From Ostreococcus lucimarinus (lineage: Eukaryota): a stretch of DNA of 64,000 bases. A program made the position numbers and the translations under genes. The stretch lies in assembly GCA_000092065.1 (NCBI GenBank), contig CP000581.1. One strand, 5' to 3'. The notes under the pieces are model-generated. The model searched no databases, was not told the origin of the DNA, and worked only from the letters and a program-made list of their open reading frames with translations. Shown one piece after another: positions 2,671 through 31,567 of this stretch (position 1 is the first letter of the stretch; each line of letters begins with the position of its first letter).

Positions 2671-3179
2671 ACCGCGCGCGCGCGATCTTCCCGCGTCGCT
2701 CCCGCGCAGGCGTCTCTCGGACCGTGTGATTCGCGCGTCGCTCGCGCCTCTCGCCTCTCGCCTCGCGCGCGCGTCTCGGCGCCTCGCGCGGCGCGACGAA
2801 CGCCCGCGCCTTCGTTCGCGCGCCGCGCTCGATCGCCGCGCTCGATCGCCGCGTTCGATCGACGACGCGCGCGTCGATTTGCCGCGCAACACCATTGTTG
2901 GTCCAGAGCAAAAAGAGCGAAATTCGACCGACCGGCGTGTCGGGAAAGACGACGGCGCGCGGCAGAAGACGCCGCCACCATGGTCGCGCGCGGTGCGACG
3001 GTGTGCGTGGGAGCGCGGTGTGGACACGCCTCTTGGCGTGCGCGCGAGAGACGAACGACGAGGTGCGCGCGACTACGACACGAAACGACGAGACGACGAC
3101 GCGCGTGCTGAATTTGAAATTTCAATCGGCGCGCGAGGCTGCGCGACGATGACGCGTTCGGGTTCGCGATCGAGCGGTC

Positions 3180-6100
3180 GTGGGACGAGACAGGGCGCGA
3201 AAGACTGACGCAGATGCGGTGCCGTGCGGTGATGCCGACCTTAGGCGTGTCGATCGTGGTGGGTGGCTCGACGGCGACGCGAGACTATCGACGCGAGGCG
3301 GACGCGTCGACGCTTCGGTGGCGGAGGGCGAGACGACGTGGCGAGGGGATTCGGGAAGTGATGCGGACGATGGAACGAGCGTGCAGGATGGTAGGGAATG
3401 GTACACGTTTAAGCACGGAGAGAACGTGCGGTGGTTGGTGGAACAGAGTGGGTTAGACTGGGCCACTCTGGAGCAACTGAATCCAGACATGGATTTGACG
3501 ACGACGTTTCCGGGAGATAGAATTGTTATCCGTGGACCACCGAGTTTAAAGCCGAACGATCGTGTGGTTGCAGCAGTGGTGGCACAACCGACGTCTTCCG
3601 TCGTGGTGACGCCAAGATTATCGACGTGGAGCTCACCCGTCGCATTAGCGGGTGTGCTCATCGTGGGTATCGTCACCGGCGCAGCTTTCGCGGGGAAAAG
3701 GCGGCTATCCACGGTCATCATGGCGCTCACGGGGAACGCGGACCCACAACTCGAGGCAAAAGACAACGAAATTGACGCTCTCAGAGCCCACCTGGATGTC
3801 GCGGAACGTGATCTCACGGACATGCGAGAGAAGTGGCTGAGGAACGAACAGTCGCTGGAAAACTTGCAACAGCTCCTGGAAAGTGCGTCGCGAGCCGACG
3901 CATCTTTGAGAGACCAAATCAGCGTGCTGAAAGAGTCCCTAGACTCAAGAAATAACGATGTCAAACGTCTCGAAAGCTCGAACGCTGAAGCCAATGAGCT
4001 TGCGGAGCAGTACAAAACCAAGCTTAAGAACGCTCAAGGTGAAGTTGACGCGCTGCGGGAAACTGAGAGAAACAGTGCGTCTCAACTTGCCCAAGTCACG
4101 CAGATGACAACGCAGTACGAAGGCGATATTTTGAGTTATAAAAGTAAATTATTGGACATCGAGGCGGAGCTGATGGCTCTCAGAGAGCTCAACGACGGTT
4201 ATTCTGATGAAGCAAATACCTCAAAAGAAAAGTACAAAGAGACACTGAGCGAAATTGCCAAAGTGACAGAGTTGAATGACAAGCTCGAGGCAGAGCTTTC
4301 AAAAACGAACGAACAGGTGATAAATCATCTAAACCAGCTAGCCATTCATAAGCACGACATGGAAAAGCTGGAATTAGAACTCGCGGCTTCTCGCAACGAT
4401 CTGTCAGAGTTGACGGTTGATTTTGAAAGCGCGAATACAAAATTGAGTTCACTTACGTCTGAACTGGAAGATAGCCGATCAGAGGCACTCGCATACTCGA
4501 ATGAGCTTCAAACTGTGAAAACCGACCTCGAGATTTCGATGGACGAACTCGAAACACTCAGAAAAAGTCTTAAAGCTTCGCAAGATCACGTTTCAGAATA
4601 TGAGATCAATCTCTCGGGTTACAAAACAAAGCTCGAAATGGTTCAATCGTCGCTTGAGATATCTCGTAATGAAGCCACAAGCTATCATGATGATCTTACT
4701 TTAAATAAACGTGAACTTGAGGAGGTGCGCGATGGACTTGAGCAGATAACGAGCGAGCTACGAGCTTCAAAGACTGAAAATTCCAGCTTATCTGATGAAC
4801 TCGACTGCTTAAAAAGCGAGCTTGAAATGCTTCAATCACAACTTGCTACTGCGAATGACGAGTCCTCAACACTCTCGATCGATCTTGCAGGGATTAAAAG
4901 TAAGCTCGAAATGGCTGAAAAAGCTCTGGAAGAGTCTCGCAATCAGGCATCTGGGTATAAGGGCGAGCTGGAAGTAGCACGTAATGAGGCTGTACAATTG
5001 TCTAGCGAGCTCATGGGCTTGAAAGTTAAGGTAGACGAGTTGGAGGTAGCGCTCAATGAAACCAGCGGAGAGTCGTCGACTCTTTCCATCGACCTCGCTG
5101 GTTTCAAGAGCAAGCTAGCAATGGTCGAGGAAGCTCTCGAGCAAGCGCGCACGCAGTCCTCTGAGTATGAAGGCGAGCTCGCTCGCGCTCGCGAGGCGCT
5201 CGAGAATGAGGCAAACGAGAAGAGATCCATGGAAGAGAAGTTTTCGAAGATGTGCGAGGAGCTATCTCAGCAGGGCATGCAAGCGTCGGAGGAAGGGGGA
5301 CGCCTAGAGCGCGAGCTCGCTTACACTCGCGAGGCGCTCGAGAATGAGGCAAACGAGAAGAGATCCATGGAGGAGAAGTTTTCAAAGACGTGCGAAGAGT
5401 TATCTCAGCAGGGCATGCAGGCGTCGCAGGAAGTTGATCGCCTGCAAGGTGAGTTGCAAAAGTCTAGAACCGCACTTGATAAAGCTAACGGCGAATCTTC
5501 ACTTCTTTCCATTGACCTCGCTGGTTTCAAGAGCAAGCTAGCAATGGTCGAGGAAGCTCTCGAGCAAGCGCGCATGCAGTCCTCTGAGTATGAAGGCGAG
5601 CTCGCTCGCGCTCGCGAGGCGCTCGAGAATGAGGCAAACGAGAAGAGATCCATGGAAGAGAAGTTTTCGAAGATGTGCGAGGAGCTATCTCAGCAGGGCA
5701 TGCAAGCGTCGGAGGAAGTTGATCGCCTGCAAGGTGAGTTGCAGGCGGCGCAAGCGGCGCTCGATAGCGCGTCGGGCGAGTCGTCGACTCTTTCCATCGA
5801 CCTCACTGGTTTCAAGAGCAAGCTAGCAATGGTCGAGGAAGCTCTCGAGCAAGCGCGCACGCAGTCCTCTGAGTATGAAGGCGAGCTCGCTCGCGCTCGC
5901 GAGGCGCTCGAGAATGAGGCAAACGAGAAGAGATCCATGGAAGAGAAGTTTTCGAAGATGTGCGAGGAGCTATCTCAGCAGGGCATGCAAGCGTCGGAGG
6001 AAGGGGGACGCCTAGAGCGCGAGCTCGCTCGCGCTCGCGAGGCGCTCGAGAATGAGGCAAACGAGAAGAGATCCATGGAAGAGAAGTTTTCGAAGATGTG

Positions 6101-7805
6101 CGAGGAGCTATCTCAGCAGGGCATGCAAGCGTCGGAGGAAGTTGATCGCCTGCAAGGTGAGTTGCAGGCGGCGCAAGCGGCGCTCGATAGCGCGGTGCGG
6201 GATTCAACGGAGATTCGCATTTCTGCTGATGGCTACAAGATGAATCTTGAAGCAGCGCAATGCGAGCTTGATGCGTTACGATCGCAAAGCGGTGACACGT
6301 CATCAGACCTTACAGAATATAAGAACAAGGTTGAATCATTGCAGTCCGAGCTTTTGTCTGCCCGTGAGGACTCTATGAAAACAGCAGAGGCTTTATCGCG
6401 AGAACAAATCAAATTTCAAGGCATGGAGGAAAAGTTGGCAAATATCGTAGCATCGAGCGGGGCAGACAACGTTGAGATTGAAACTTATAAATCACGGCTT
6501 GCGAGCAGTGAATTAGAACTCGAAACTCTTAGGGTGAAAGCAGCGGTAAATGCTGAAGAAGCAGAAAAGTATCAAGTAAATCTCATCGACGCCCGTGAGG
6601 AAGTTGCAAGATTAGCCGATGAAATTGGCGAGTGGAAGAGCAAAGCAGATTCTCTCGAACACCAACTCGGTCAAGTTCAGATGGAGCACCCCGACAAAGA
6701 TGAAGATGCAGAAAAAAATCGTCAGCTTGAGGACGAGTTAGAACTCTTAAAAGAAAAAGTCTCAGCGTCATCGGCTGAAATAGAGTCATACATGGGTAAG
6801 TTGGAGCACGCGGAATCTGAACTTTCAGTGATGCGAGCTGAGATTGAAGGAGGAAAACACGAAAGATCCGAACAAAACCAGGAAGTGATCGCGCGCATGC
6901 AAATTGAAGTTAGTGCAGCAAATGAGCGAGCTGATCGCTATAAGCAGCGTTTGCTTGAGCTCGAGGAAAATATGCAGCTCAAGTTAGAATCCCTTGAGTC
7001 GATTGCTGAATTTTCTGAAACAGAGGAAGTGCGATTGCTGCAGGAACAAATTTCGAGGCTTGAGTCAGAAAACGCCGAGGCGAACTCAATGCTGAAAAAC
7101 ATGGAACAGGATATAGCGAAAATGCGTGTCTCTTCTATCGAGCCTTCTCAGTCTCCAATGTGGCTGATCGAGGAAGAGCGGCGTGACATGGAATTATCTA
7201 TGCTTGAAGCGAGACAAGCAGCACAGCTCTCATTGGCACAAGTGTCGCAGGCGGTAACCAAAATGAGACAACAAGCGCGAGGCGAGCTGGTTTCGCATGC
7301 CATCTCTTGCGAGTTCAAAGTACGCAAAGATGTTGGCGAACATCAATTCCTTTGTTTGGTAGGAAGTTGGCACGAGTGGGATGTACAGACAGCTGATTAC
7401 ATGCAGCGCGGCGCTGATGGTACCTGGCAAGTTGCCATCACGCTCTTTGCAGATGAGGCGTACGAATATAAATACTGTGTTTGCGAGGTAAATGAGCACG
7501 GTCAGCGTGTTCCAATAGAGTGGCAAGTAGGCCACAATCACGGCTTTGCCTTCGATTCAAATCTAATCGTCAATCAGAACATGAAGGCCAAGGCGCAGAT
7601 CCGAGATAAATTTCTCGCGGATCCAGCGCATACCCCAATAATCTTATTTGGGCCAAATGGTGAAAAGTTTGAGACGGGTAGTACGGCGCTGCTCCACAAC
7701 TTCTCGAATCACATCGCTGAAAGTGGATTTGAGAATTTGCGAACGAGTCTTGAGCGTTTAAATGCCATCCTCGCGAAGTCACAGCGTAAAAATCTTGAGG
7801 CGTAG
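3180..7805 (+). CDS. Giant LysM - transmembrane - coiled-coil (internally repeated) - CBM20/48-type starch-binding domain protein
   Basis: N-terminal LysM-like segment YTFKHGENVRWLVEQSGLDWATLEQLNPDM...FPGDRIVIRGPP; one TM helix WSSPVALAGVLIVGIVTGAAFAG followed by KRR; about 1150 aa of E/L/K/A-rich heptad coiled coil; C-terminal FKVRKDVGEHQFLCLVGSWHEWD...GTWQVAITL...EYKYCVCEVNEHGQRVPIEWQVGHNHGFAF matches the CBM20/CBM48 fold signature. True start uncertain (first 60 aa D/G/R-rich). Confidence 0.7.
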   Translation: MGRDRARKTDADAVPCGDADLRRVDRGGWLDGDARLSTRGGRVDASVAEGETTWRGDSGSDADDGTSVQDGREWYTFKHGENVRWLVEQSGLDWATLEQLNPDMDLTTTFPGDRIVIRGPPSLKPNDRVVAAVVAQPTSSVVVTPRLSTWSSPVALAGVLIVGIVTGAAFAGKRRLSTVIMALTGNADPQLEAKDNEIDALRAHLDVAERDLTDMREKWLRNEQSLENLQQLLESASRADASLRDQISVLKESLDSRNNDVKRLESSNAEANELAEQYKTKLKNAQGEVDALRETERNSASQLAQVTQMTTQYEGDILSYKSKLLDIEAELMALRELNDGYSDEANTSKEKYKETLSEIAKVTELNDKLEAELSKTNEQVINHLNQLAIHKHDMEKLELELAASRNDLSELTVDFESANTKLSSLTSELEDSRSEALAYSNELQTVKTDLEISMDELETLRKSLKASQDHVSEYEINLSGYKTKLEMVQSSLEISRNEATSYHDDLTLNKRELEEVRDGLEQITSELRASKTENSSLSDELDCLKSELEMLQSQLATANDESSTLSIDLAGIKSKLEMAEKALEESRNQASGYKGELEVARNEAVQLSSELMGLKVKVDELEVALNETSGESSTLSIDLAGFKSKLAMVEEALEQARTQSSEYEGELARAREALENEANEKRSMEEKFSKMCEELSQQGMQASEEGGRLERELAYTREALENEANEKRSMEEKFSKTCEELSQQGMQASQEVDRLQGELQKSRTALDKANGESSLLSIDLAGFKSKLAMVEEALEQARMQSSEYEGELARAREALENEANEKRSMEEKFSKMCEELSQQGMQASEEVDRLQGELQAAQAALDSASGESSTLSIDLTGFKSKLAMVEEALEQARTQSSEYEGELARAREALENEANEKRSMEEKFSKMCEELSQQGMQASEEGGRLERELARAREALENEANEKRSMEEKFSKMCEELSQQGMQASEEVDRLQGELQAAQAALDSAVRDSTEIRISADGYKMNLEAAQCELDALRSQSGDTSSDLTEYKNKVESLQSELLSAREDSMKTAEALSREQIKFQGMEEKLANIVASSGADNVEIETYKSRLASSELELETLRVKAAVNAEEAEKYQVNLIDAREEVARLADEIGEWKSKADSLEHQLGQVQMEHPDKDEDAEKNRQLEDELELLKEKVSASSAEIESYMGKLEHAESELSVMRAEIEGGKHERSEQNQEVIARMQIEVSAANERADRYKQRLLELEENMQLKLESLESIAEFSETEEVRLLQEQISRLESENAEANSMLKNMEQDIAKMRVSSIEPSQSPMWLIEEERRDMELSMLEARQAAQLSLAQVSQAVTKMRQQARGELVSHAISCEFKVRKDVGEHQFLCLVGSWHEWDVQTADYMQRGADGTWQVAITLFADEAYEYKYCVCEVNEHGQRVPIEWQVGHNHGFAFDSNLIVNQNMKAKAQIRDKFLADPAHTPIILFGPNGEKFETGSTALLHNFSNHIAESGFENLRTSLERLNAILAKSQRKNLEA
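5070..6190 (+). repeat. Near-identical in-frame tandem DNA repeats inside the coiled-coil gene (alternating ~138-nt and ~285-nt units)
   Basis: The block GCGAGGCGCTCGAGAATGAGGCAAACGAGAAGAGATCCATGGAAGAGAAGTTTTCGAAGATGTGCGAGGAGCTATCTCAGCAGGGCATGCAAGCGTCGGAGGAAG recurs about 5 times (near 5190, 5328, 5613, 5899, 6037). The longer unit beginning GAGTCGTCGACTCTTTCCATCGACCTCGCTGGTTTCAAGAGCAAGCTAGCAATGGTCGAGGAAGCTCTCGAGCAAGCGCGCACGCAGTCCTCTGAGTATGAAGGCGAG recurs 3 times (near 5071, 5491, 5771) with only scattered substitutions. Confidence 0.85.
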
Positions 7806-8152
7806 ATCAGTAGCAAAATGTTGGGGCGAGATTCCTTCAGGCATAGATTCCTTCAGGCTTAGACACGAAGTAGTTCTTCCTTAACAAATTCAATTTCAAA
7901 ACAAACTATAAATTTTATTTACTGAGCGGCTGCACATGTACTAAGTAATGTCGTTTAATATTCTCCTGGCGATGCGACGAGTATCCCACCTTGCGTCAAG
8001 TCTGCCCATTTCAAACACTTCACTGCACGGCGTGTCGCTACGCTTGCGGCGCGCGCGCTACGACTCTGAATTGACGCAACGTCCAGGTCGCACGCATTAG
8101 CCGAACGCGCTCCACGCGTCGTCGTGCACAGTCAAATACGCTCGACGGCGAG

Positions 8153-9322
8153 ATGATCGACGCCGCGGTGGGTGTTGGCGGCAACGTTGTCGAGTCCGAG
8201 GCTCTGTTGGAGCCTGCGAGTGGGTCGGGACGCGATCGTCGTCTCGCACGCAAAGCATTACAATGGTCCGGCGCGATGCTGACGTTTGCGTCGTTCATCG
8301 CGCTCGGCGTCGTTGCAAAGCGGCGCTGGGTTGGCGTTGAGCGCGCGAGCGCGGCGGCGTTGGGAGACACGCCTGGAACAGTGCGCGTGGAATCGTTCGA
8401 CACCGCGGCTTGTCAGTGGCGTCTTGATCGTGCGCTTGACGAGAATATTCGGTGTAATCCGGCTGGCACAGACGTCGTGGTAGTGCCCAAACTCAAAGCG
8501 GTGTACGTGGATGTGACGAAGGCGGCGAGTGAAAGTATACGAAGTCGTCTATTAGATGTCTACAACTCAAGCTGGACAAATGAAGAATACGCCATGGACG
8601 AAGGGAACAACATCGTTCGTTCGACTACTTCTTCGTTGTCGGATGAATTGTTGGATTCATACAAATTCTTCACGTTTGTACGAAATCCAAGTGAGCGTTT
8701 CGTCTCTGGCTATCAGCAGGCTTTCTGTCGCTCTTTGTGTCAGGGATGCATGCATGGAAAGACACCCACCCGGCCTCCGACGATTGAGCAGACGATCGAT
8801 TTGATAGAAATCATGCGCGGTAGGGCGAAGCATGACGACAGCTTTTGCTCGAATCGTCTGGGGGCGCCGCAAGACCAGAGCTTTTTGAACAATCCTTGGT
8901 TGGATGAGCACTTACAATCAACCGTATCGAGGCTCAGTGGTGTAACTCGACGTGGCTCGCGCGTACCAATGCACTTTATAGGTCGAACTGAGTCGTTGGA
9001 CGAAGATTGGAACCGTCTTATGGATGAGCTCGGCGTCGAACCAAGTCACCCTGTTCGTGCTCCGCTCAAGCACGTCGAGCACGAGTGCGCGATCTCCGAG
9101 CGCGAAAGACATTTGAAAGCCCAACGTGACGTATTCTTCTCTCACATAGTCCGTGGTGAACGAGCTCCAGAATCAGGCGAGCTTTATGAACCAGTGGAAG
9201 TCATTTACTCACGCGACAGAGCCGAGGTACACATCCCGAAGCCGAGTACCGCAAACGGTGGTGCGTACTTTGATAGATTCAAAACGCTCTACGAGGACGA
9301 TTACCGATGCCTCGATTATTAG
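8153..9322 (+). CDS. Carbohydrate sulfotransferase-like protein (Sulfotransfer_2 family), type II membrane topology
   Basis: N-terminal TM AMLTFASFIALGVVA; 3'-PAPS-binding-like FTFVRNPSERFVSGY; HFIGRTESLDEDWNRLM and C-terminal YFDRFKTLYEDDYRCLDY resemble conserved blocks of Golgi carbohydrate sulfotransferases. 5'-PSB motif is degenerate. Confidence 0.5.
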   Translation: MIDAAVGVGGNVVESEALLEPASGSGRDRRLARKALQWSGAMLTFASFIALGVVAKRRWVGVERASAAALGDTPGTVRVESFDTAACQWRLDRALDENIRCNPAGTDVVVVPKLKAVYVDVTKAASESIRSRLLDVYNSSWTNEEYAMDEGNNIVRSTTSSLSDELLDSYKFFTFVRNPSERFVSGYQQAFCRSLCQGCMHGKTPTRPPTIEQTIDLIEIMRGRAKHDDSFCSNRLGAPQDQSFLNNPWLDEHLQSTVSRLSGVTRRGSRVPMHFIGRTESLDEDWNRLMDELGVEPSHPVRAPLKHVEHECAISERERHLKAQRDVFFSHIVRGERAPESGELYEPVEVIYSRDRAEVHIPKPSTANGGAYFDRFKTLYEDDYRCLDY

Positions 9323-9469: not shown

Positions 9470-11215
9470 ATGGAGCTTGCATCGCGCGACACCGCGCGAT
9501 CGACACTGACGCGCGCGTTACCATTCGACGTATTCGACGCCGACACCGACGCACCGTCGTGCAGCGACACCGACGCCACGAACGGCTTGGCTGCGACGAA
9601 CAAACCGTTGAATCGCAGCGACGAAGACGCCGTCGTTGAGCTTCGGGCGATCGATGCAGCGCTCCGTGCGGCGCTGCACCGCGCACCACGAACGATGAAT
9701 GAAGTTGTGACGAAAGGGGCGACGCTGGATCTGTGTGCGGACCTCATAGAGCGCGAGGATGAGGCGATGCGCGCGGCGGGAGCAGGACGTCGTCGAGCGA
9801 CAAGCTCGAGCGAAACCGAACGCGAGGAAGACGTGCCATGGGGCACACCGACGAAGGCGGCGGTGGAACGATTTGCAGAAGAGCTGGAGGTGGTTCTCAA
9901 AGAGAAGGAGAACGCGGTGATTGGACTTGAGAAGACTTTGGCATCGAAGCGCGAAGCGACGCTTGCATTTGAGCAGCAAAGAGCGCGGGCAGCGCAGAGC
10001 GAAAAAGCGCTGCACTTCGCCGAAGGCGAGATTGTGAGACTATCGAAGAAGGTGAATGAGCTCTCCAAAGTTTTGGAAGGCTCGAGGGCAGAGTCCGCCC
10101 AACGTTGGGAAAAATTAAAGAAGGTAGAGAAGCGACTTGCGGAGGCGCAAGCCAAGGACGAGGAAAATCTGCGTGCGCTTGCGATGCTTCGAAAAGATTT
10201 GCAAACTGAGCGTCAAATGAACAAGTCAAAAGAAGCCGAGATATCTCGACTGCGCGATGCGTTCCGAGATGTCAGCAACGGTAAAAAGATTGAAAACGTG
10301 GGTGATGAGCAGAATTTGAAGCGAATTCAAGACCTGGAAGAAAAGATTGTTCAGTTGGCTGTTTCCGTATCAAAGCAGTCTTCTGCATCTTCAGTACCAC
10401 GACGTTCGAACGAGCGCGAGTTGAATTTGTTAGTCCACGAGCTCGCTAAAGAAGAGTTGAAATCCAGAGCTCGAGCGGACGCCGCTGAGCAACTCGTTAC
10501 TACGATGCGAGCAGAGTTAGATTCAAAGACGGTCGAAGTTATCACGCTGCGTCAGCACATCAATACTCTTGATCAAAAACATCCCGTTAGAACCATCTCA
10601 CGCGGGTCCTTAGACTCACCGCGATCGGTGTCAGTTTCTCTAGAAGAGATTGATCAGAACCTTCAACGAAGTTGCGATCGCGCCGAACAGCTTTGCCAAC
10701 GTCTTTCAACGGTGATGTCTTCTGGTGGAGCATCAACGGGTGGATATTCTCAGAGAATGATGGAAACCCCTCTTAGTGTGTCGAGCGATCGTTCAGAGGA
10801 CAAGATTCGCGAGCTTCAAGAAGCGCTTGATGATCAATCTCAGCGTCGAGACGAGGCTGAGAAACTGGCAGCCAAGGCGGCGAGTGATGCATCAGCCTTG
10901 CGAGATTTGATCACCGCAGAACGCATAGCATCTGCTGCTGCAATGATGGCTGAGTCGAGGGGCTTGACAGGAGCGTATGTCGCGCGAGGAAATACGCACA
11001 ATATGTCTCCATCAACTTCTGATGTCACATCGACACCGAGCCGTAGTCCTCGACCGTTTCAACACACACCACGAACGACGTCGTCGATCTTCGGAGGTGC
11101 TCCCGTAGGCCTTTCAAAAGAGTTGGAAGAAGCGCGGCGCACCGCTAATAAAGAGCGTAAGCGCGCGGAAGTGGCCGAGGAGACAATATCTCGATGGAGC
11201 CGTCTCGCAGATTAG
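9470..11215 (+). CDS. Hypothetical coiled-coil protein
   Basis: 581-aa ORF with long heptad-like E/K/R/L/A stretches and S/T/P-rich C-terminus; overlapping minus-strand ORFs are Ser/Ala/Arg low-complexity antisense. No recognisable catalytic domain. Confidence 0.45.
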   Translation: MELASRDTARSTLTRALPFDVFDADTDAPSCSDTDATNGLAATNKPLNRSDEDAVVELRAIDAALRAALHRAPRTMNEVVTKGATLDLCADLIEREDEAMRAAGAGRRRATSSSETEREEDVPWGTPTKAAVERFAEELEVVLKEKENAVIGLEKTLASKREATLAFEQQRARAAQSEKALHFAEGEIVRLSKKVNELSKVLEGSRAESAQRWEKLKKVEKRLAEAQAKDEENLRALAMLRKDLQTERQMNKSKEAEISRLRDAFRDVSNGKKIENVGDEQNLKRIQDLEEKIVQLAVSVSKQSSASSVPRRSNERELNLLVHELAKEELKSRARADAAEQLVTTMRAELDSKTVEVITLRQHINTLDQKHPVRTISRGSLDSPRSVSVSLEEIDQNLQRSCDRAEQLCQRLSTVMSSGGASTGGYSQRMMETPLSVSSDRSEDKIRELQEALDDQSQRRDEAEKLAAKAASDASALRDLITAERIASAAAMMAESRGLTGAYVARGNTHNMSPSTSDVTSTPSRSPRPFQHTPRTTSSIFGGAPVGLSKELEEARRTANKERKRAEVAEETISRWSRLAD

Positions 11216-29841: not shown

Positions 29842-30700
29842 CCCGCCCGTCCCGGTCGCGCGCGCGTCGTCCCCCTCCTCTTCCCTCGCCTTCCTTCACG
29901 CCGCGCGCGTCCCGCGCCTCGCCTCCGATCCACCCGCGCGCGTCCCGCGCCTCCGCTAAGCGCGCGCCCCGCGCGTTTCAAACGGATGCGCGCACGAATC
30001 GATTCACGCGGAGCGTCCCCGACGCGCCTGGCGCGCGCGCGCGTCGTCTCGATCCGTCGCCCGCGTCGTCGCGGTTTGCGGCGTCGCGCGCGCGTCGTCT
30101 CGATCCGTCGCGCGCGTCGGTCGTCGTCGGTCGTCGTCGGATGTCGGACGTCGTCGGATGTCGGATCCGTCGTCGGCCGGCGTCGAGTGGCGTCGCGCGA
30201 TCGACGCGATATCGGCGCGTCGCGCGACCGACGCGATATCGGCGCGACGGCGCGGGACGGGACCGGCGACGCGATATCGGATATCGGCGCGGCGCGGCGC
30301 GGTCGCGCGCATGGGTGTACGTGTATCGTAAATACGCCTAAAGCGGCCGTATTCGAACGCATCGATGCGGGATCGCGCGTCCACGATCGATCGCGGTCGC
30401 GTCGCGCGCGCGGGCGCGCATGCATTGATTATGGGTGTACGTGTATCGTAAATACGCGACCGCGGCCGTATTCGAACGCATCGATGCGGGATCGCGGATC
30501 CCGGATAGATCGCGGGCGCGTCGCGCGCGCGGTCGCGCATGCGTCGATTATGGGTTTACGTGTATCGTAAATACGCGACCGCGGCCGTATTCGAACGCAT
30601 CGATGCGCGATCGCGCGTCCACGATGGAGCGCGGGCGCGTCGCGCGCGCGGTCGCGCATGCATCGATTCGTGCGTTCGCGACGGGGCGATAGAGTCGGAC
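29842..30700. repeat. Repeat-rich intergenic/promoter region with nested short direct repeats and 3 x ~119-bp tandem units (30301..30665)
   Basis: Unit: GCATGCATTGATTATGGGTGTACGTGTATCGTAAATACGCGACCGCGGCCGTATTCGAACGCATCGATGCGGGATCGCG...CGCGGGCGCGTCGCGCGCGCGGTCGC, repeated at about 30308, 30428 and 30547 with few substitutions; each carries the perfect palindrome CGCATCGATGCG and TTCGAA. Upstream: duplicated GCGCGCGTCGTCTCGATCCGTCGC (30041-30115), GCGATATCGG x4 (30200-30290), CGCGCGCGTCCCGCGCCTC x2 (29905-29955). Confidence 0.85.
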
Positions 30701-30703
30701 GCG

Positions 30704-31490
30704 ATGGACGCGACGTGCGCGCCGCCGCCGGCGAGACCGAATTGCGATTGCGGTGCGCGCGACGCGACGCTGCGCGACGCGACGGGACGCGGGACGACGC
30801 GACGACGACGCGCGGGCGATCGAGGGTCGAGGGCGCGCGGTCGAGGGCGGGATCTCGACGGCGCGCGAGCGACGGCGCGCGGGACGCGCGCGGGACGCGG
30901 GCGACGGCGACCGCGCGATCGGGGAGTGGGGAGACTGACGGATGCGGTGATCGCGCGCGAGAACAGCGGTGTGCGTGCCGAAGGCGCTGAAAGATGGGGA
31001 TTACGACGCCTCGCTCAAGGGGCCGACGAGCCCGTTTCAGCCGTACAAGCTGGTGAAGGTGGAGTTGGACGGCACGCGAAGACCGCTGACGGCGCAGGAG
31101 CTGAACGCGCTCGAAAAGTCGAATCCGACGGTTTGTGAGTGGCAAACGCCGCTCAGTCAGGCGAAGCGGATGTGGCAGAAGACGTGCGCGGGGATTTTGA
31201 AAAAGTTGTTTACGTACAAAAAGTTGGCGTGGCCGTTTACGGAGCCGGTGGATTGGGAGGTTTTGAACATCCCGGATTACCCGGTCATCATCAAGCATCC
31301 CATGGACTTGAAAACGATCGAGTCGAAGTTGCACGACGGGCACATCGAAAGCCCTGATGAGTTTGTCGCCCTCGTGCGCACGGTTTTCCGTAACGCGTAC
31401 GTGTACAACGCGGTGGGCGATCCCAGCGGCGTTCGCGAGTGCGCGGAGAAGCTCTCGCAAATTTTCGAGAAGGAACTCGCCAAATTGTAA
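30704..31490 (+). CDS. Small bromodomain protein; join(30704..30752,30967..31490)
   Basis: Exon 2 encodes a BET-like bromodomain (ILKKLFTYKKLAWPFTEPVDWEVLNIPDYPVIIKHPMDLKTIESKLHDGHIESPDEFVALVRTVFRNAYVYNAVGDPSGV). The ORF-track start is a GTG; a Cys-rich micro-exon ATGGACGCGACGTGCGCGCCGCCGCCGGCGAGACCGAATTGCGATTGCG (MDATCAPPPARPNCDC + 1 nt) followed by GTGCGC...GAGACTGACGG...GAACAG| joins in phase 1 to give ...CDC-A-VCVPKALK. Confidence 0.65.
30753..30966 (+). other. intron (bromodomain gene), 214 nt, phase 1
   Basis: Donor GTGCGC at 30753; branch GACTGACGG about 30 nt upstream of acceptor AACAG at 30962-30966. Confidence 0.55.
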
Positions 31491-31567
31491 TACGAAAATA
31501 GAAGAAAATAGAAGAATGATGGCTACATCTCGTACTGCCGTGCTAATTTACTAAAACTACTGCGTTA

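What the first reader, a model, noticed from the sequence alone, without database searches (positions are those of the whole stretch)
5070..6190. Near-identical tandem DNA repeats build the coiled coil; possible assembly collapse or recent expansion
Units of about 138 nt and about 285 nt recur with nearly perfect nucleotide identity (3-5 copies), all in frame, encoding REALENEANEKRSMEEKFSKMCEELSQQGMQASEE... modules. Such identity implies very recent duplication or concerted evolution. The true copy number is easily mis-assembled from short reads, so the protein length is likely polymorphic or uncertain. More diverged copies flank the core (about 4850-5070 and 6190-6300), pointing to repeated rounds of expansion.
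Basis: seen in the sequence. Interest (0 to 1): 0.5.

Follow-up and report, generated by a model that had tools for sequence, protein, structure and literature searches.

The report
Variable tandem repeats in starch-tether gene
A long rod-shaped protein of the tiny marine alga Ostreococcus lucimarinus contains near-identical in-frame DNA repeats whose number differs between strains and assemblies, so the reference protein length is uncertain by at least 141 residues; this is a well-known kind of repeat behaviour, here in an undescribed membrane-anchored starch-binding protein.

Summary
Window 5067-6197 is a gap-free, in-frame array of three 123-nt A modules and five B modules. Each B has a 105-nt core plus a 33- or 57-nt tail. 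Four of the five B cores are 105/105 identical.

The window is Ostreococcus lucimarinus CCE9901. The gene (ORF 3180-7805) encodes a LysM-like domain, one transmembrane helix, a coiled coil of about 1150 residues and a C-terminal CBM20 starch-binding domain.

The repeats are real and recur in more than 20 independent contigs. Short-read assemblies cannot resolve them: five scaffolds have N-gaps exactly there, five contigs end there, and one contig with identical flanks collapses the array to a single unit.

Three chromosome-length contigs with flanks identical to the window (0-1 mismatch) carry exactly one more 423-nt unit. Either the reference collapsed a unit or it is a very recent deletion allele. 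Other large contigs carry 4A/6B, about 5A/6B and 6A/8B.

Lineage-specific substitutions sit in all copies within a lineage, which is concerted evolution. A sister Ostreococcus clade varies the orthologous 138-nt module from 1 to 3 copies.

This is a known kind of phenomenon, a coding minisatellite. The protein architecture appears undescribed. A role as a membrane-to-starch tether of variable length is inferred, not shown.

The parts
3180..7805 (+). Open reading frame of the host gene (1541 codons as listed; the true 5' end is unresolved because there is no in-frame ATG upstream of the LysM-like domain)
   Evidence: orthologues of 1047-1317 aa with conserved synteny next to the lipase gene
3390..3545 (+). 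LysM-like domain (aa 71-122 of the ORF)
   Evidence: All PDB hits of the orthologue profile are LysM domains, best E 0.0026. The AF2 model has beta-alpha-alpha-beta topology. Foldseek top hits are LysM, TM 0.7-0.84, rmsd 1.4-1.5 A. Pfam LysM scores 20.4 bits against a cut-off of 20.9 in orthologues.
3639..3695 (+). Single transmembrane helix (aa 154-172, VALAGVLIVGIVTGAAFAG), followed by KRR
   Evidence: Kyte-Doolittle 19-residue mean of 2.26. It is the only segment above 1.6; the next best is 0.73.
3747..7199 (+). Coiled-coil rod, about 1150 residues (E 18%, L 12%, only 3 Pro)
   Evidence: Heptad tracker; composition; only coiled-coil Pfam families match
4857..4979 (+). Older diverged A-like module (67% nt, 68% aa to A1), conserved in the sister species
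5067..6197 (+). Near-identical in-frame array: A1 B s1 B2 L1 A2 B L2 A3 B s2 B L3 (3 A and 5 B modules)
5067..5189 (+). A module copy 1 (further copies at 5490-5612 and 5775-5897)
5190..5294 (+). B core copy 1 (identical copies at 5613-5717, 5898-6002 and 6036-6140; older copy at 5328-5432, 98/105)
5372..5513 (+). Diverged 'old' patch (end of B2, L1, start of A2). It is shared with other lineages and is the only internal landmark of the array.
5805..6096 (+). Interval within which one extra 423-nt unit (B3-L2-A4-B-s2) is present in three chromosome-length contigs. Any of the 292 insertion points reproduces their array exactly.
7299..7676 (+). CBM20 starch-binding domain plus a conserved C-terminal extension
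   Evidence: Pfam CBM_20 22.8 bits against a cut-off of 23.3. PDB profile hits: glucoamylase SBD 1ac0 at E 2e-7 and STBD1 CBM20. AF2 pLDDT 82. The Foldseek top 50 are all CBM20. Site-1 residues are invariant.
7680..7799 (+). C-terminal amphipathic helix after the CBM20
   Evidence: H161-200 of the model

Best explanation
The region is a genuine coding minisatellite inside the coiled-coil rod of an Ostreococcus lucimarinus membrane protein.

SHOWN:
- The array is built from two modules, A (41 aa) and B (35-aa core plus an 11- or 19-aa tail).
- Its copies are near-identical at the DNA level.
- Its copies evolve in concert within lineages.
- Its copy number differs between lineages, from 3A/5B in the window to 6A/8B.
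- Short reads cannot resolve it.
- Three chromosome-length contigs with identical flanks have exactly one more 423-nt unit than the window.

INFERRED mechanism:
- Unequal crossing-over and gene conversion between units sharing 123-224 nt of exact identity add, remove and homogenise units.
- Each unit (46 or 95 aa, which is 7n+4) carries its own heptad stutter at QQ|GMQAS. Whole-unit gains and losses therefore recreate junctions that already exist, and change only the rod length, in steps of about 7, 14 or 21 nm.
- The window's 3A/5B state is either a collapse of one unit in the Sanger reference or a very recent one-unit deletion allele. I cannot separate these two and rate them about equally likely.

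INFERRED function:
- The protein is a LysM-like domain, a transmembrane helix, a rod of about 170 nm and a CBM20. I read it as a membrane-anchored tether that reaches the starch granule, with the repeats setting its reach.
For: Repeat anatomy.

Organism: the neighbouring gene product equals XP_001415521.1 of O. lucimarinus CCE9901, and the lipase equals XP_001415849.1.

Reality of the repeats: the same modules in the same order occur in more than 20 independent contigs.

Short-read failure: N-gaps in L001, L002, L005, L022 and L028; contig ends in L010, L012, L015, L055 and L056; a collapsed array in L003 with 100% identical flanks.

One extra unit: L024, L025 and L030 (contigs of 1,130,612, 1,130,901 and 1,131,266 bp from three samples) have identical 1554-nt arrays. 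Their flanks show 0 mismatches in 8.3 kb and 1 mismatch in 12.6 kb.

Real polymorphism between large contigs: L006 (947 kb) has 4A/6B with different alleles, L053 (385 kb) has 6A/8B, and L054 (430 kb) has about 5A/6B.

Concerted evolution.

Parallel variation of the orthologous 138-nt module in a sister clade: 74, 16 and 1 protein clusters carry 1, 2 and 3 copies. L026 has 3.0 copies at 99%, and two of them are 138/138 identical.

Purifying selection on the old copy: 5 synonymous against 2 non-synonymous differences.

Heptad stutter once per unit.

Domains.
Against: - I could not confirm that the 0.4-1.13-Mb contigs come from long reads. That rests on their length, their names and the single-base indels in L024 and L054.
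- Several intermediate architectures come from short-read metagenomes and may be mis-threaded assembly graphs rather than alleles. These are L004, L007, L008 and L009.
- No reads were available, so copy number in strain CCE9901 itself is not measured.
- The function is entirely inferred. The 5' end and targeting signal are unresolved. Ostreococcus lacks most peptidoglycan-synthesis genes (PMC4815162), so the ligand of the LysM-like domain is unknown. The compartment of the CBM20 (stroma or cytosol) is not established.
Confidence: 0.85

Rival explanations
1. The reference (window) array is a Sanger assembly collapse. Strain CCE9901 really carries the 1554-nt 4A/7B array, and the protein is 141 residues longer than the window implies.
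For: - Three chromosome-length contigs from three samples have flanks identical to the window (0 mismatches in 8.3 kb; 1 in 12.6 kb) and all carry the extra 423-nt unit.
- Natural genotypes typically differ by 2-24 mismatches per 21 kb, so these contigs are at least as close to the reference as any natural genotype.
- The missing unit is about 99% identical to its neighbour, which is the situation in which overlap assemblers merge units.
Against: - An unequal crossover within the identical B-s2 stretch would give exactly the same structure.
- The window differs from L025 at position 10125. An independent short-read contig (L015, SRR23274481) agrees with the window there, so the reference lineage is not identical to that of L025.
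- The reference was a finished Sanger assembly with reads longer than any exact repeat here; the longest is 224 nt. The statement about the sequencing method rests on my own knowledge.
Confidence: 0.5
2. All copy-number differences are assembly errors. The species has one invariant array and there is no real polymorphism.
For: - Most ungapped variants come from short-read metagenomes.
- The short ones (A-B-L; A-B-L-A-B-L) look like shortcut paths through one assembly graph.
- L004 and L007 lack the old patch although their flanks are identical to the window.
Against: - The large contigs disagree with each other in structure and in alleles. L024, L025 and L030 have 4A/7B. L006 has 4A/6B with 100G>C in every copy. 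L053 has 6A/8B with its own fixed substitutions and a duplicated old patch.
- These allele patterns are internally consistent within each lineage, which random mis-threading would not produce.
Confidence: 0.08
3. The repeats are an assembly duplication artefact and do not exist in the genome.
For: None beyond the general risk that comes with near-identical repeats.
Against: - The same modules occur in tandem in more than 20 independent contigs from different projects and in a sister species.
- The copies carry ordered, reproducible allele differences.
- The reading frame stays open in every version.
Confidence: 0.01
4. Copy-number change is not neutral slippage but is selected. Rod length is tuned, for example to the distance between a membrane and the starch granule, which would explain why the same module varies in two species.
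For: - The orthologous 46-aa B module varies independently in the sister clade.
- Another orthologue (P0094) has a different near-identical repeat elsewhere in the rod.
- The array is by far the most variable part of a locus whose nucleotide diversity is only about 1e-4 to 1e-3.
- Only whole, frame-preserving units are seen.
Against: - High mutability of long exact repeats, plus purifying selection against frameshifts, explains the same pattern without positive selection.
- There are no phenotype or population-frequency data.
- Many of the counts in the sister clade come from short-read assemblies.
Confidence: 0.2

Closest known systems
Coding minisatellites (in-frame VNTRs) evolving by concerted evolution, as in coiled-coil and surface proteins such as streptococcal M proteins, fungal adhesins and involucrin (from my own knowledge)
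   Same: Head-to-tail units whose length is a multiple of three. DNA identity is near-perfect within a genome. Copy number differs between strains. Substitutions are homogenised across copies. Short reads mis-assemble the array.
   Different: The array has two nested periodicities, 138 nt and 285/423 nt, built from two modules. It sits in the rod of an intracellular or organellar tether-like protein, not in an exposed antigen or adhesin. The orthologous module also varies in a sister species.
Chlamydomonas SAGA1/SAGA2 and BSG1 (CBM20 plus coiled coil; PMC6744930, PMC13167743, PMC6374437)
   Same: Non-enzymatic proteins that combine a CBM20 starch-binding module with a long coiled coil. They are involved in starch granule shape, number and placement.
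   Different: In those proteins the CBM20 is N-terminal, after a transit peptide. Here it is C-terminal, and the N-terminus carries a LysM-like domain and a transmembrane helix. Only the CBM20 could be tested for homology: I had no SAGA or BSG1 sequences to compare, and Rubisco-binding motifs were not looked for.
Arabidopsis PTST2/PTST3, MFP1 and MRC/PII1 (starch granule initiation; cited in 10.1101/2024.10.03.616402)
   Same: Coiled-coil proteins, some with a CBM48 (related to CBM20) and one (MFP1) membrane-associated. They position and initiate starch granules.
   Different: The domain composition differs (CBM48, not CBM20; no LysM). They have no near-identical tandem array. No orthology was shown.
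Animal STBD1 / genethonin-1 (PDB 8x8k)
   Same: An N-terminal membrane anchor with a C-terminal CBM20 that tethers a glucan particle to a membrane. The STBD1 CBM20 is among the best sequence and fold matches.
   Different: STBD1 (from my own knowledge) is a short protein without a long coiled coil or a LysM domain, and it binds glycogen. Similarity here is limited to the CBM20.

Membership tests
Coding minisatellite under concerted evolution | Head-to-tail units with high DNA identity | tested here: met
   The array at 5067-6197 is contiguous. Four B cores are 105/105 identical and A copies are 93.5-98.4% identical.
Coding minisatellite under concerted evolution | Unit length a multiple of three, with the reading frame kept in all alleles | tested here: met
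   Units of 138, 285 and 423 nt. There are no stops in the arrays of the window or L025, or in the called products spanning the arrays of L004, L006 and L053.
Coding minisatellite under concerted evolution | Copy number differs between individuals or strains | tested here: met
   Large contigs carry 4A/7B (three times), 4A/6B, about 5A/6B and 6A/8B, against 3A/5B in the window. Caveat: the sequencing technology of these contigs is not documented, and no reads were examined.
Coding minisatellite under concerted evolution | Copies within a lineage are more alike than orthologous copies between lineages | tested here: met
   100G>C is in all B copies of group 2. 72C>T and 93C>G are in all six A copies of L053, and six substitutions are in all eight of its B copies. 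The sister species has 138/138 identity within but only 64% to the window module.
Assembly collapse of a tandem repeat | Assemblies of the same genotype give different copy numbers, and contigs break at the array | tested here: met
   L003 has 100% identical flanks but a 285-nt array. There are five N-gaps and five contig ends at the array. Contigs with identical flanks carry +423 nt. Whether the window itself is collapsed remains undecided.
CBM20 starch-binding domain | Score above the Pfam CBM_20 gathering threshold | tested here: inconclusive
   The window protein scores 22.8 bits against a cut-off of 23.3. Orthologue P0093 scores 27.7, and distant relatives P0139, P0142 and P0136 score 41-47 bits.
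CBM20 starch-binding domain | CBM20 beta-sandwich fold | tested here: met
   AF2 model with pLDDT 82. All of the top 50 Foldseek PDB hits are CBM20 domains, with probability 1.00 and target TM 0.72-0.80 against the isolated-domain entries. The profile hit to glucoamylase SBD 1ac0 has E 2.2e-7.
CBM20 starch-binding domain | Binding-site 1 residues (two Trp, Lys, Glu and Asn of the glucoamylase SBD) | tested here: met
   W60, E89-Y90-K91, W108 and N113 of the 201-aa segment are invariant in 20 sequences. They align with D-W-E, E-Y-K, E-W and N-R of 1ac0. Assigning these to site 1 rests on my knowledge of the glucoamylase SBD.
CBM20 starch-binding domain | Binds starch or alpha-glucan | not testable with these tools
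   Needs a binding assay.
LysM (CBM50) | Score above the Pfam LysM gathering threshold | tested here: not met
   No hit for the window segment. Orthologues score 20.3-20.4 bits against a cut-off of 20.9.
LysM (CBM50) | Beta-alpha-alpha-beta fold matching solved LysM domains | tested here: met
   Model topology E-H-H-E, pLDDT 72. Foldseek top hits are nearly all LysM, with TM 0.7-0.84 and rmsd 1.4-1.5 A but E only 0.01-0.1. All PDB hits of the profile are LysM, best E 0.0026.
SAGA1/SAGA2/BSG1-type proteins | N-terminal CBM20 followed by a coiled coil | tested here: not met
   Here the CBM20 is C-terminal and the N-terminus is a LysM-like domain plus a TM helix. Architecture of BSG1 taken from PMC6374437.
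SAGA1/SAGA2/BSG1-type proteins | Plastid transit peptide, Rubisco-binding motifs | not tested
   The 5' end of the gene is unresolved. No targeting predictor was available.
STBD1-like membrane-glucan tether | N-terminal membrane anchor plus C-terminal CBM20 | tested here: met
   One TM helix at aa 154-172 and a CBM20 at about aa 1374-1499. This is resemblance of layout only. Homology is limited to the CBM20.

The most novel reading that the evidence does not exclude
The array is an evolvable molecular ruler. The protein spans from a plastid or other membrane (LysM-like domain on the far side) to the single starch granule through its C-terminal CBM20. Gain and loss of 7-21-nm rod modules would be selected in natural Ostreococcus populations to tune granule position, size or partitioning at division. 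That would explain why the same module is copy-number variable in two species. It would give a first molecular handle on how the smallest eukaryote partitions its one starch granule.
Probability: 0.12. Interest if true: 0.7.

Novelty: new member of a known kind. Interest (0 to 1): 0.42.

Why it matters
Practical consequences:
- The reference gene model for this O. lucimarinus protein is probably one 141-residue unit short, or represents only one of several alleles.
- Any short-read or metagenome-derived version of this gene is unreliable between window positions 5067 and 6197.
- The locus could serve as a simple PCR-sizable strain marker in a species whose nucleotide diversity is otherwise only about 1e-4 to 1e-3.

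Biological consequences:
- The host protein belongs to a family found so far only in Ostreococcus and a few more distant relatives of unidentified origin, with an architecture I found no description of: LysM-like domain, TM helix, coiled coil of about 170 nm, and CBM20.
- That makes it a candidate for anchoring or partitioning the single starch granule of Ostreococcus. How this happens has been open since Ral et al. 2004 (cited in 10.1101/2024.10.03.616402).
- The natural allelic series of rod lengths is a ready-made experiment for testing that idea.

Tried and rejected
- Exact look-ups of the window ORF product and of the L003, L004 and L006 variants found nothing. The search for homologous proteins returned no same-species protein, only orthologues at 31-50% identity. 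All same-species evidence therefore had to come from neighbour-gene anchors.
- I first read L004, L007 and L001 as a 1%-diverged upstream haplotype. This was an alignment artefact from running through the array. Their unique flanks are identical to the window or differ by a single mismatch (L001).
- I considered that the LysM-like domain binds plastid peptidoglycan and links the division site to starch. This is weakened because Ostreococcus retains only DDL and MURE of the pathway (PMC4815162).
- I tried to establish what the 1.13-Mb JGI contigs and SRR23274481 are. A paper search for their identifiers gave nothing, and papers mentioning long reads with O. lucimarinus were irrelevant.
It was solved through lipase cluster members instead.
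- Cluster look-ups for names of orthologues and distant relatives gave no useful names.
- I tried to define the true start codon or first exon by eye. This is unresolved.
- TRF on the P0094 locus did not detect its protein-level repeat.
Full report
**Observation**

Tandem Repeats Finder reports a 285-nt period (5311-6003, 2.4 copies, 91% matches, no indels) and a 138-nt period (5169-6161) inside ORF 3180-7805(+). This is the strongest tandem repeat in the 64-kb window.

I dissected it into two modules:
- A is 123 nt and encodes GESSTLSIDLAGFKSKLAMVEEALEQARTQSSEYEGELARA.
- B has a 105-nt core encoding REALENEANEKRSMEEKFSKMCEELSQQGMQASEE. It is followed by a short tail s (33 nt, GGRLERELARA) or a long tail L (57 nt, VDRLQGELQAAQAALDSAS).

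The array runs from 5067 to 6197 without gaps, in the order A1 B s1 B2 L1 A2 B L2 A3 B s2 B L3.
- Four B cores are 105/105 identical.
- The copy at 5328 differs at 7 sites, 5 of them synonymous.
- A copies are 93.5-98.4% identical.
- The longest exact internal repeats are 224, 176, 143 and 123 nt.

An older A-like copy lies at 4857-4979 (67% nt), with weaker ones further upstream. The claimed downstream copy at about 6198-6320 is barely above background.

**Organism and gene**

The neighbouring gene product (8153-9322) is identical to XP_001415521.1 of Ostreococcus lucimarinus CCE9901. The lipase upstream is XP_001415849.1, on a 1,152,508-bp record.

The ORF encodes four parts:
- A LysM-like domain at aa 71-122. 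All PDB hits of the orthologue profile are LysM domains. The model has beta-alpha-alpha-beta topology with LysM fold matches. Pfam is just below threshold in orthologues.
- One transmembrane helix at aa 154-172.
- About 1150 residues of coiled coil.
- A C-terminal CBM20. The profile hit to the glucoamylase starch-binding domain has E 2e-7, and STBD1 CBM20 is also hit. The model has pLDDT 82. The top 50 fold matches are all CBM20. The site-1 Trp/Trp/Lys/Glu/Asn residues are invariant.

There is no in-frame ATG upstream of the LysM-like domain, so the first exon is unresolved. Orthologues of 1047-1317 aa with conserved synteny exist in other Ostreococcus lineages and in at least one more distant relative whose organism I could not name. 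The CBM20 plus a conserved extension occurs in about 70 representative proteins, several of those I examined carrying coiled-coil regions.

**Are the repeats real, and is the copy number right?**

Using neighbouring genes as anchors, I retrieved the locus from more than 20 independent contigs. The same modules appear in the same order everywhere, so the repeats are not an artefact.

Short-read assemblies fail exactly here:
- Five scaffolds carry a 100-N gap in the array (L001, L002, L005, L022, L028).
- Five contigs end in it (L010, L012, L015, L055, L056).
- L003 (MEGAHIT k127) has flanks 100% identical to the window but only A-B-L, 285 nt.

Three contigs of 1.1306-1.1313 Mb from three JGI samples (L024, L025, L030) share one 1554-nt array. 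It equals the window array plus a single 423-nt unit (B3 L2 A4 B s2), placed anywhere within 5805-6096, and differs in nothing else. Their unique flanks show 0 mismatches in 8.3 kb (L030) and 1 mismatch in 12.6 kb (L025, at window 10125). Natural genotypes differ from the window by 2-24 mismatches per 21 kb.

So either the Sanger reference merged two units that are 99% identical, or it carries a one-unit deletion that arose faster than point mutations accumulate. A crossover within the identical B-s2 stretch would give the same structure, so I cannot tell these apart.

A short-read contig of another run (L015) matches the window at 10125. This shows that the reference lineage is at least slightly distinct from that of L025.

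**Polymorphism and concerted evolution**

Other large contigs differ from each other in both structure and alleles:
- L006 (947 kb): A B4 s1 B2 L1 A2 B5 L2 A3 B5 L2 A4 B4 s1 B4 L4, which is 4A/6B.
- L054 (430 kb): about 5A/6B.
- L053 (385 kb), a lineage 3-5% diverged in the flanking coding sequence: 6A/8B, 1986 nt.

The substitution 100G>C (E to Q) is present in every B copy of the L006 group, but only in the old copy B2 of the window. In L053, all six A copies share 72C>T and 93C>G, and all eight B copies share six substitutions.

The strongly diverged patch B2-L1-A2 (window 5372-5513) is nevertheless shared by the window, L006 and L053. So at least two units predate these lineages, and the rest has been homogenised within each lineage. 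That is concerted evolution by unequal crossing-over and gene conversion, combined with recent expansion.

**Parallel variation in a sister species**

In the sister Ostreococcus clade (41-50% protein identity), the orthologous 46-aa B module is present 1, 2 or 3 times in 74, 16 and 1 protein clusters. At the DNA level L026 has 3.0 copies of a 138-nt period at 99%, with two copies 138/138 identical. These are only 64% identical to the window module.

A more distant species (P0093) has single, diverged A and B. Another orthologue (P0094) has a different near-identical repeat elsewhere in the rod.

**How it works**

A simple heptad tracker shows an unbroken a/d register within each unit and one shift at QQ|GMQAS per unit. 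This fits unit lengths of 46 and 95 residues, which are 7n+4. Whole-unit gains and losses therefore recreate junctions that already exist and change only the rod length. At 0.1485 nm per residue the steps are about 6.8, 14.1 or 20.9 nm. Observed arrays range from 95 to 662 residues (the 1986-nt array of L053), or about 14-98 nm; the 95-564-residue steps were computed and the upper value follows.

The functional reading is inference from the domain layout. It treats the protein as a membrane anchor with an extracytosolic or intermembrane LysM-like domain and a rod of about 170 nm ending in a starch-binding module, that is, a tether to the starch granule.

Ostreococcus lacks most peptidoglycan-synthesis genes (PMC4815162), so the LysM ligand is unknown.

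**Comparison with known systems**

The repeat behaviour is that of a coding minisatellite, a known kind of phenomenon.

The protein resembles the CBM-plus-coiled-coil starch proteins of Chlamydomonas (SAGA1/2, BSG1; PMC6744930, PMC13167743, PMC6374437) and Arabidopsis (PTST2/3, MFP1, MRC; 10.1101/2024.10.03.616402). It has the opposite domain order and adds a LysM-like domain and a TM helix. Its layout of membrane anchor plus C-terminal CBM20 recalls animal STBD1. I found no description of this family.

**Verdict**

The phenomenon is of a familiar kind. Its main values are three:
- It corrects or qualifies the reference gene model.
- It gives a strain marker in a species of low diversity.
- It flags an uncharacterised candidate for starch-granule anchoring whose rod length varies naturally.

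Noticed in passing
window 7806-8152 (compare L006/L023, L019, L026, L027, L041-L044, L053, L054): The window has only a 347-nt spacer between the coiled-coil gene and the sulfotransferase. Other lineages and the sister species carry 2.3-5.3 kb more here: a guanylate-cyclase/isochorismatase-like gene, and often a TIR+SAM-domain gene as well. This is a gene presence/absence polymorphism next to the repeat gene.
   Followed up: partly
window 30311-30668: A tandem repeat of 119 nt x 3.0 copies at 90% identity. It lies in a stretch of about 1.7 kb (29842-31567) with no convincing ORF, between two minus-strand genes.
   Followed up: no
window 3149-3390: There is no in-frame ATG between the upstream stop and the LysM-like domain. 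The ATGs at 3149 and 3214 are in other frames. The gene probably starts with a short exon and an intron, or the start is non-canonical, so targeting signals cannot be read from the ORF.
   Followed up: partly
window 10125 (gene 9470-11215): This is the single flank difference between the window and the 1.13-Mb contig L025 over 12.6 kb. Only two contigs in the collection encode the window's exact 581-aa product, and the one shown (L015, a 15-kb contig of run SRR23274481) is 100% identical to the window over 13 kb.
   Followed up: partly
window 7554-7676 (C-terminal extension of the CBM20): After the CBM20 fold there is a strongly conserved motif (DPAHTPIILFGPNGEKFETGSTALL) that is not part of Pfam CBM_20. 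It is shared by about 70 representative proteins, several of those examined carrying coiled-coil regions. It may define a sub-family of CBM20 tether proteins.
   Followed up: partly
L027 5001-8954 (orthologue P0094): A more distant orthologue has a different near-identical repeat (LESELMQLRTQVVSGDSVATGYVEKLAAAEFEITK, 2-3 copies) in another part of the rod. Recent internal duplication therefore seems to be a recurrent property of this family.
   Followed up: no
window 7837-29216 compared with L031-L040: Natural metagenome genotypes from many sites differ from the reference by only 2-24 mismatches in about 21 kb (1e-4 to 1e-3). Nucleotide diversity is very low, which makes the repeat array the most variable feature of the locus.
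   Followed up: partly
L024 (contig Ga0494222_0007) and L054: These large contigs carry single-base indels that split the coiled-coil gene into fragments (263+1318 aa; 602+286+73+671 aa). This looks like long-read consensus error rather than biology.
   Followed up: no
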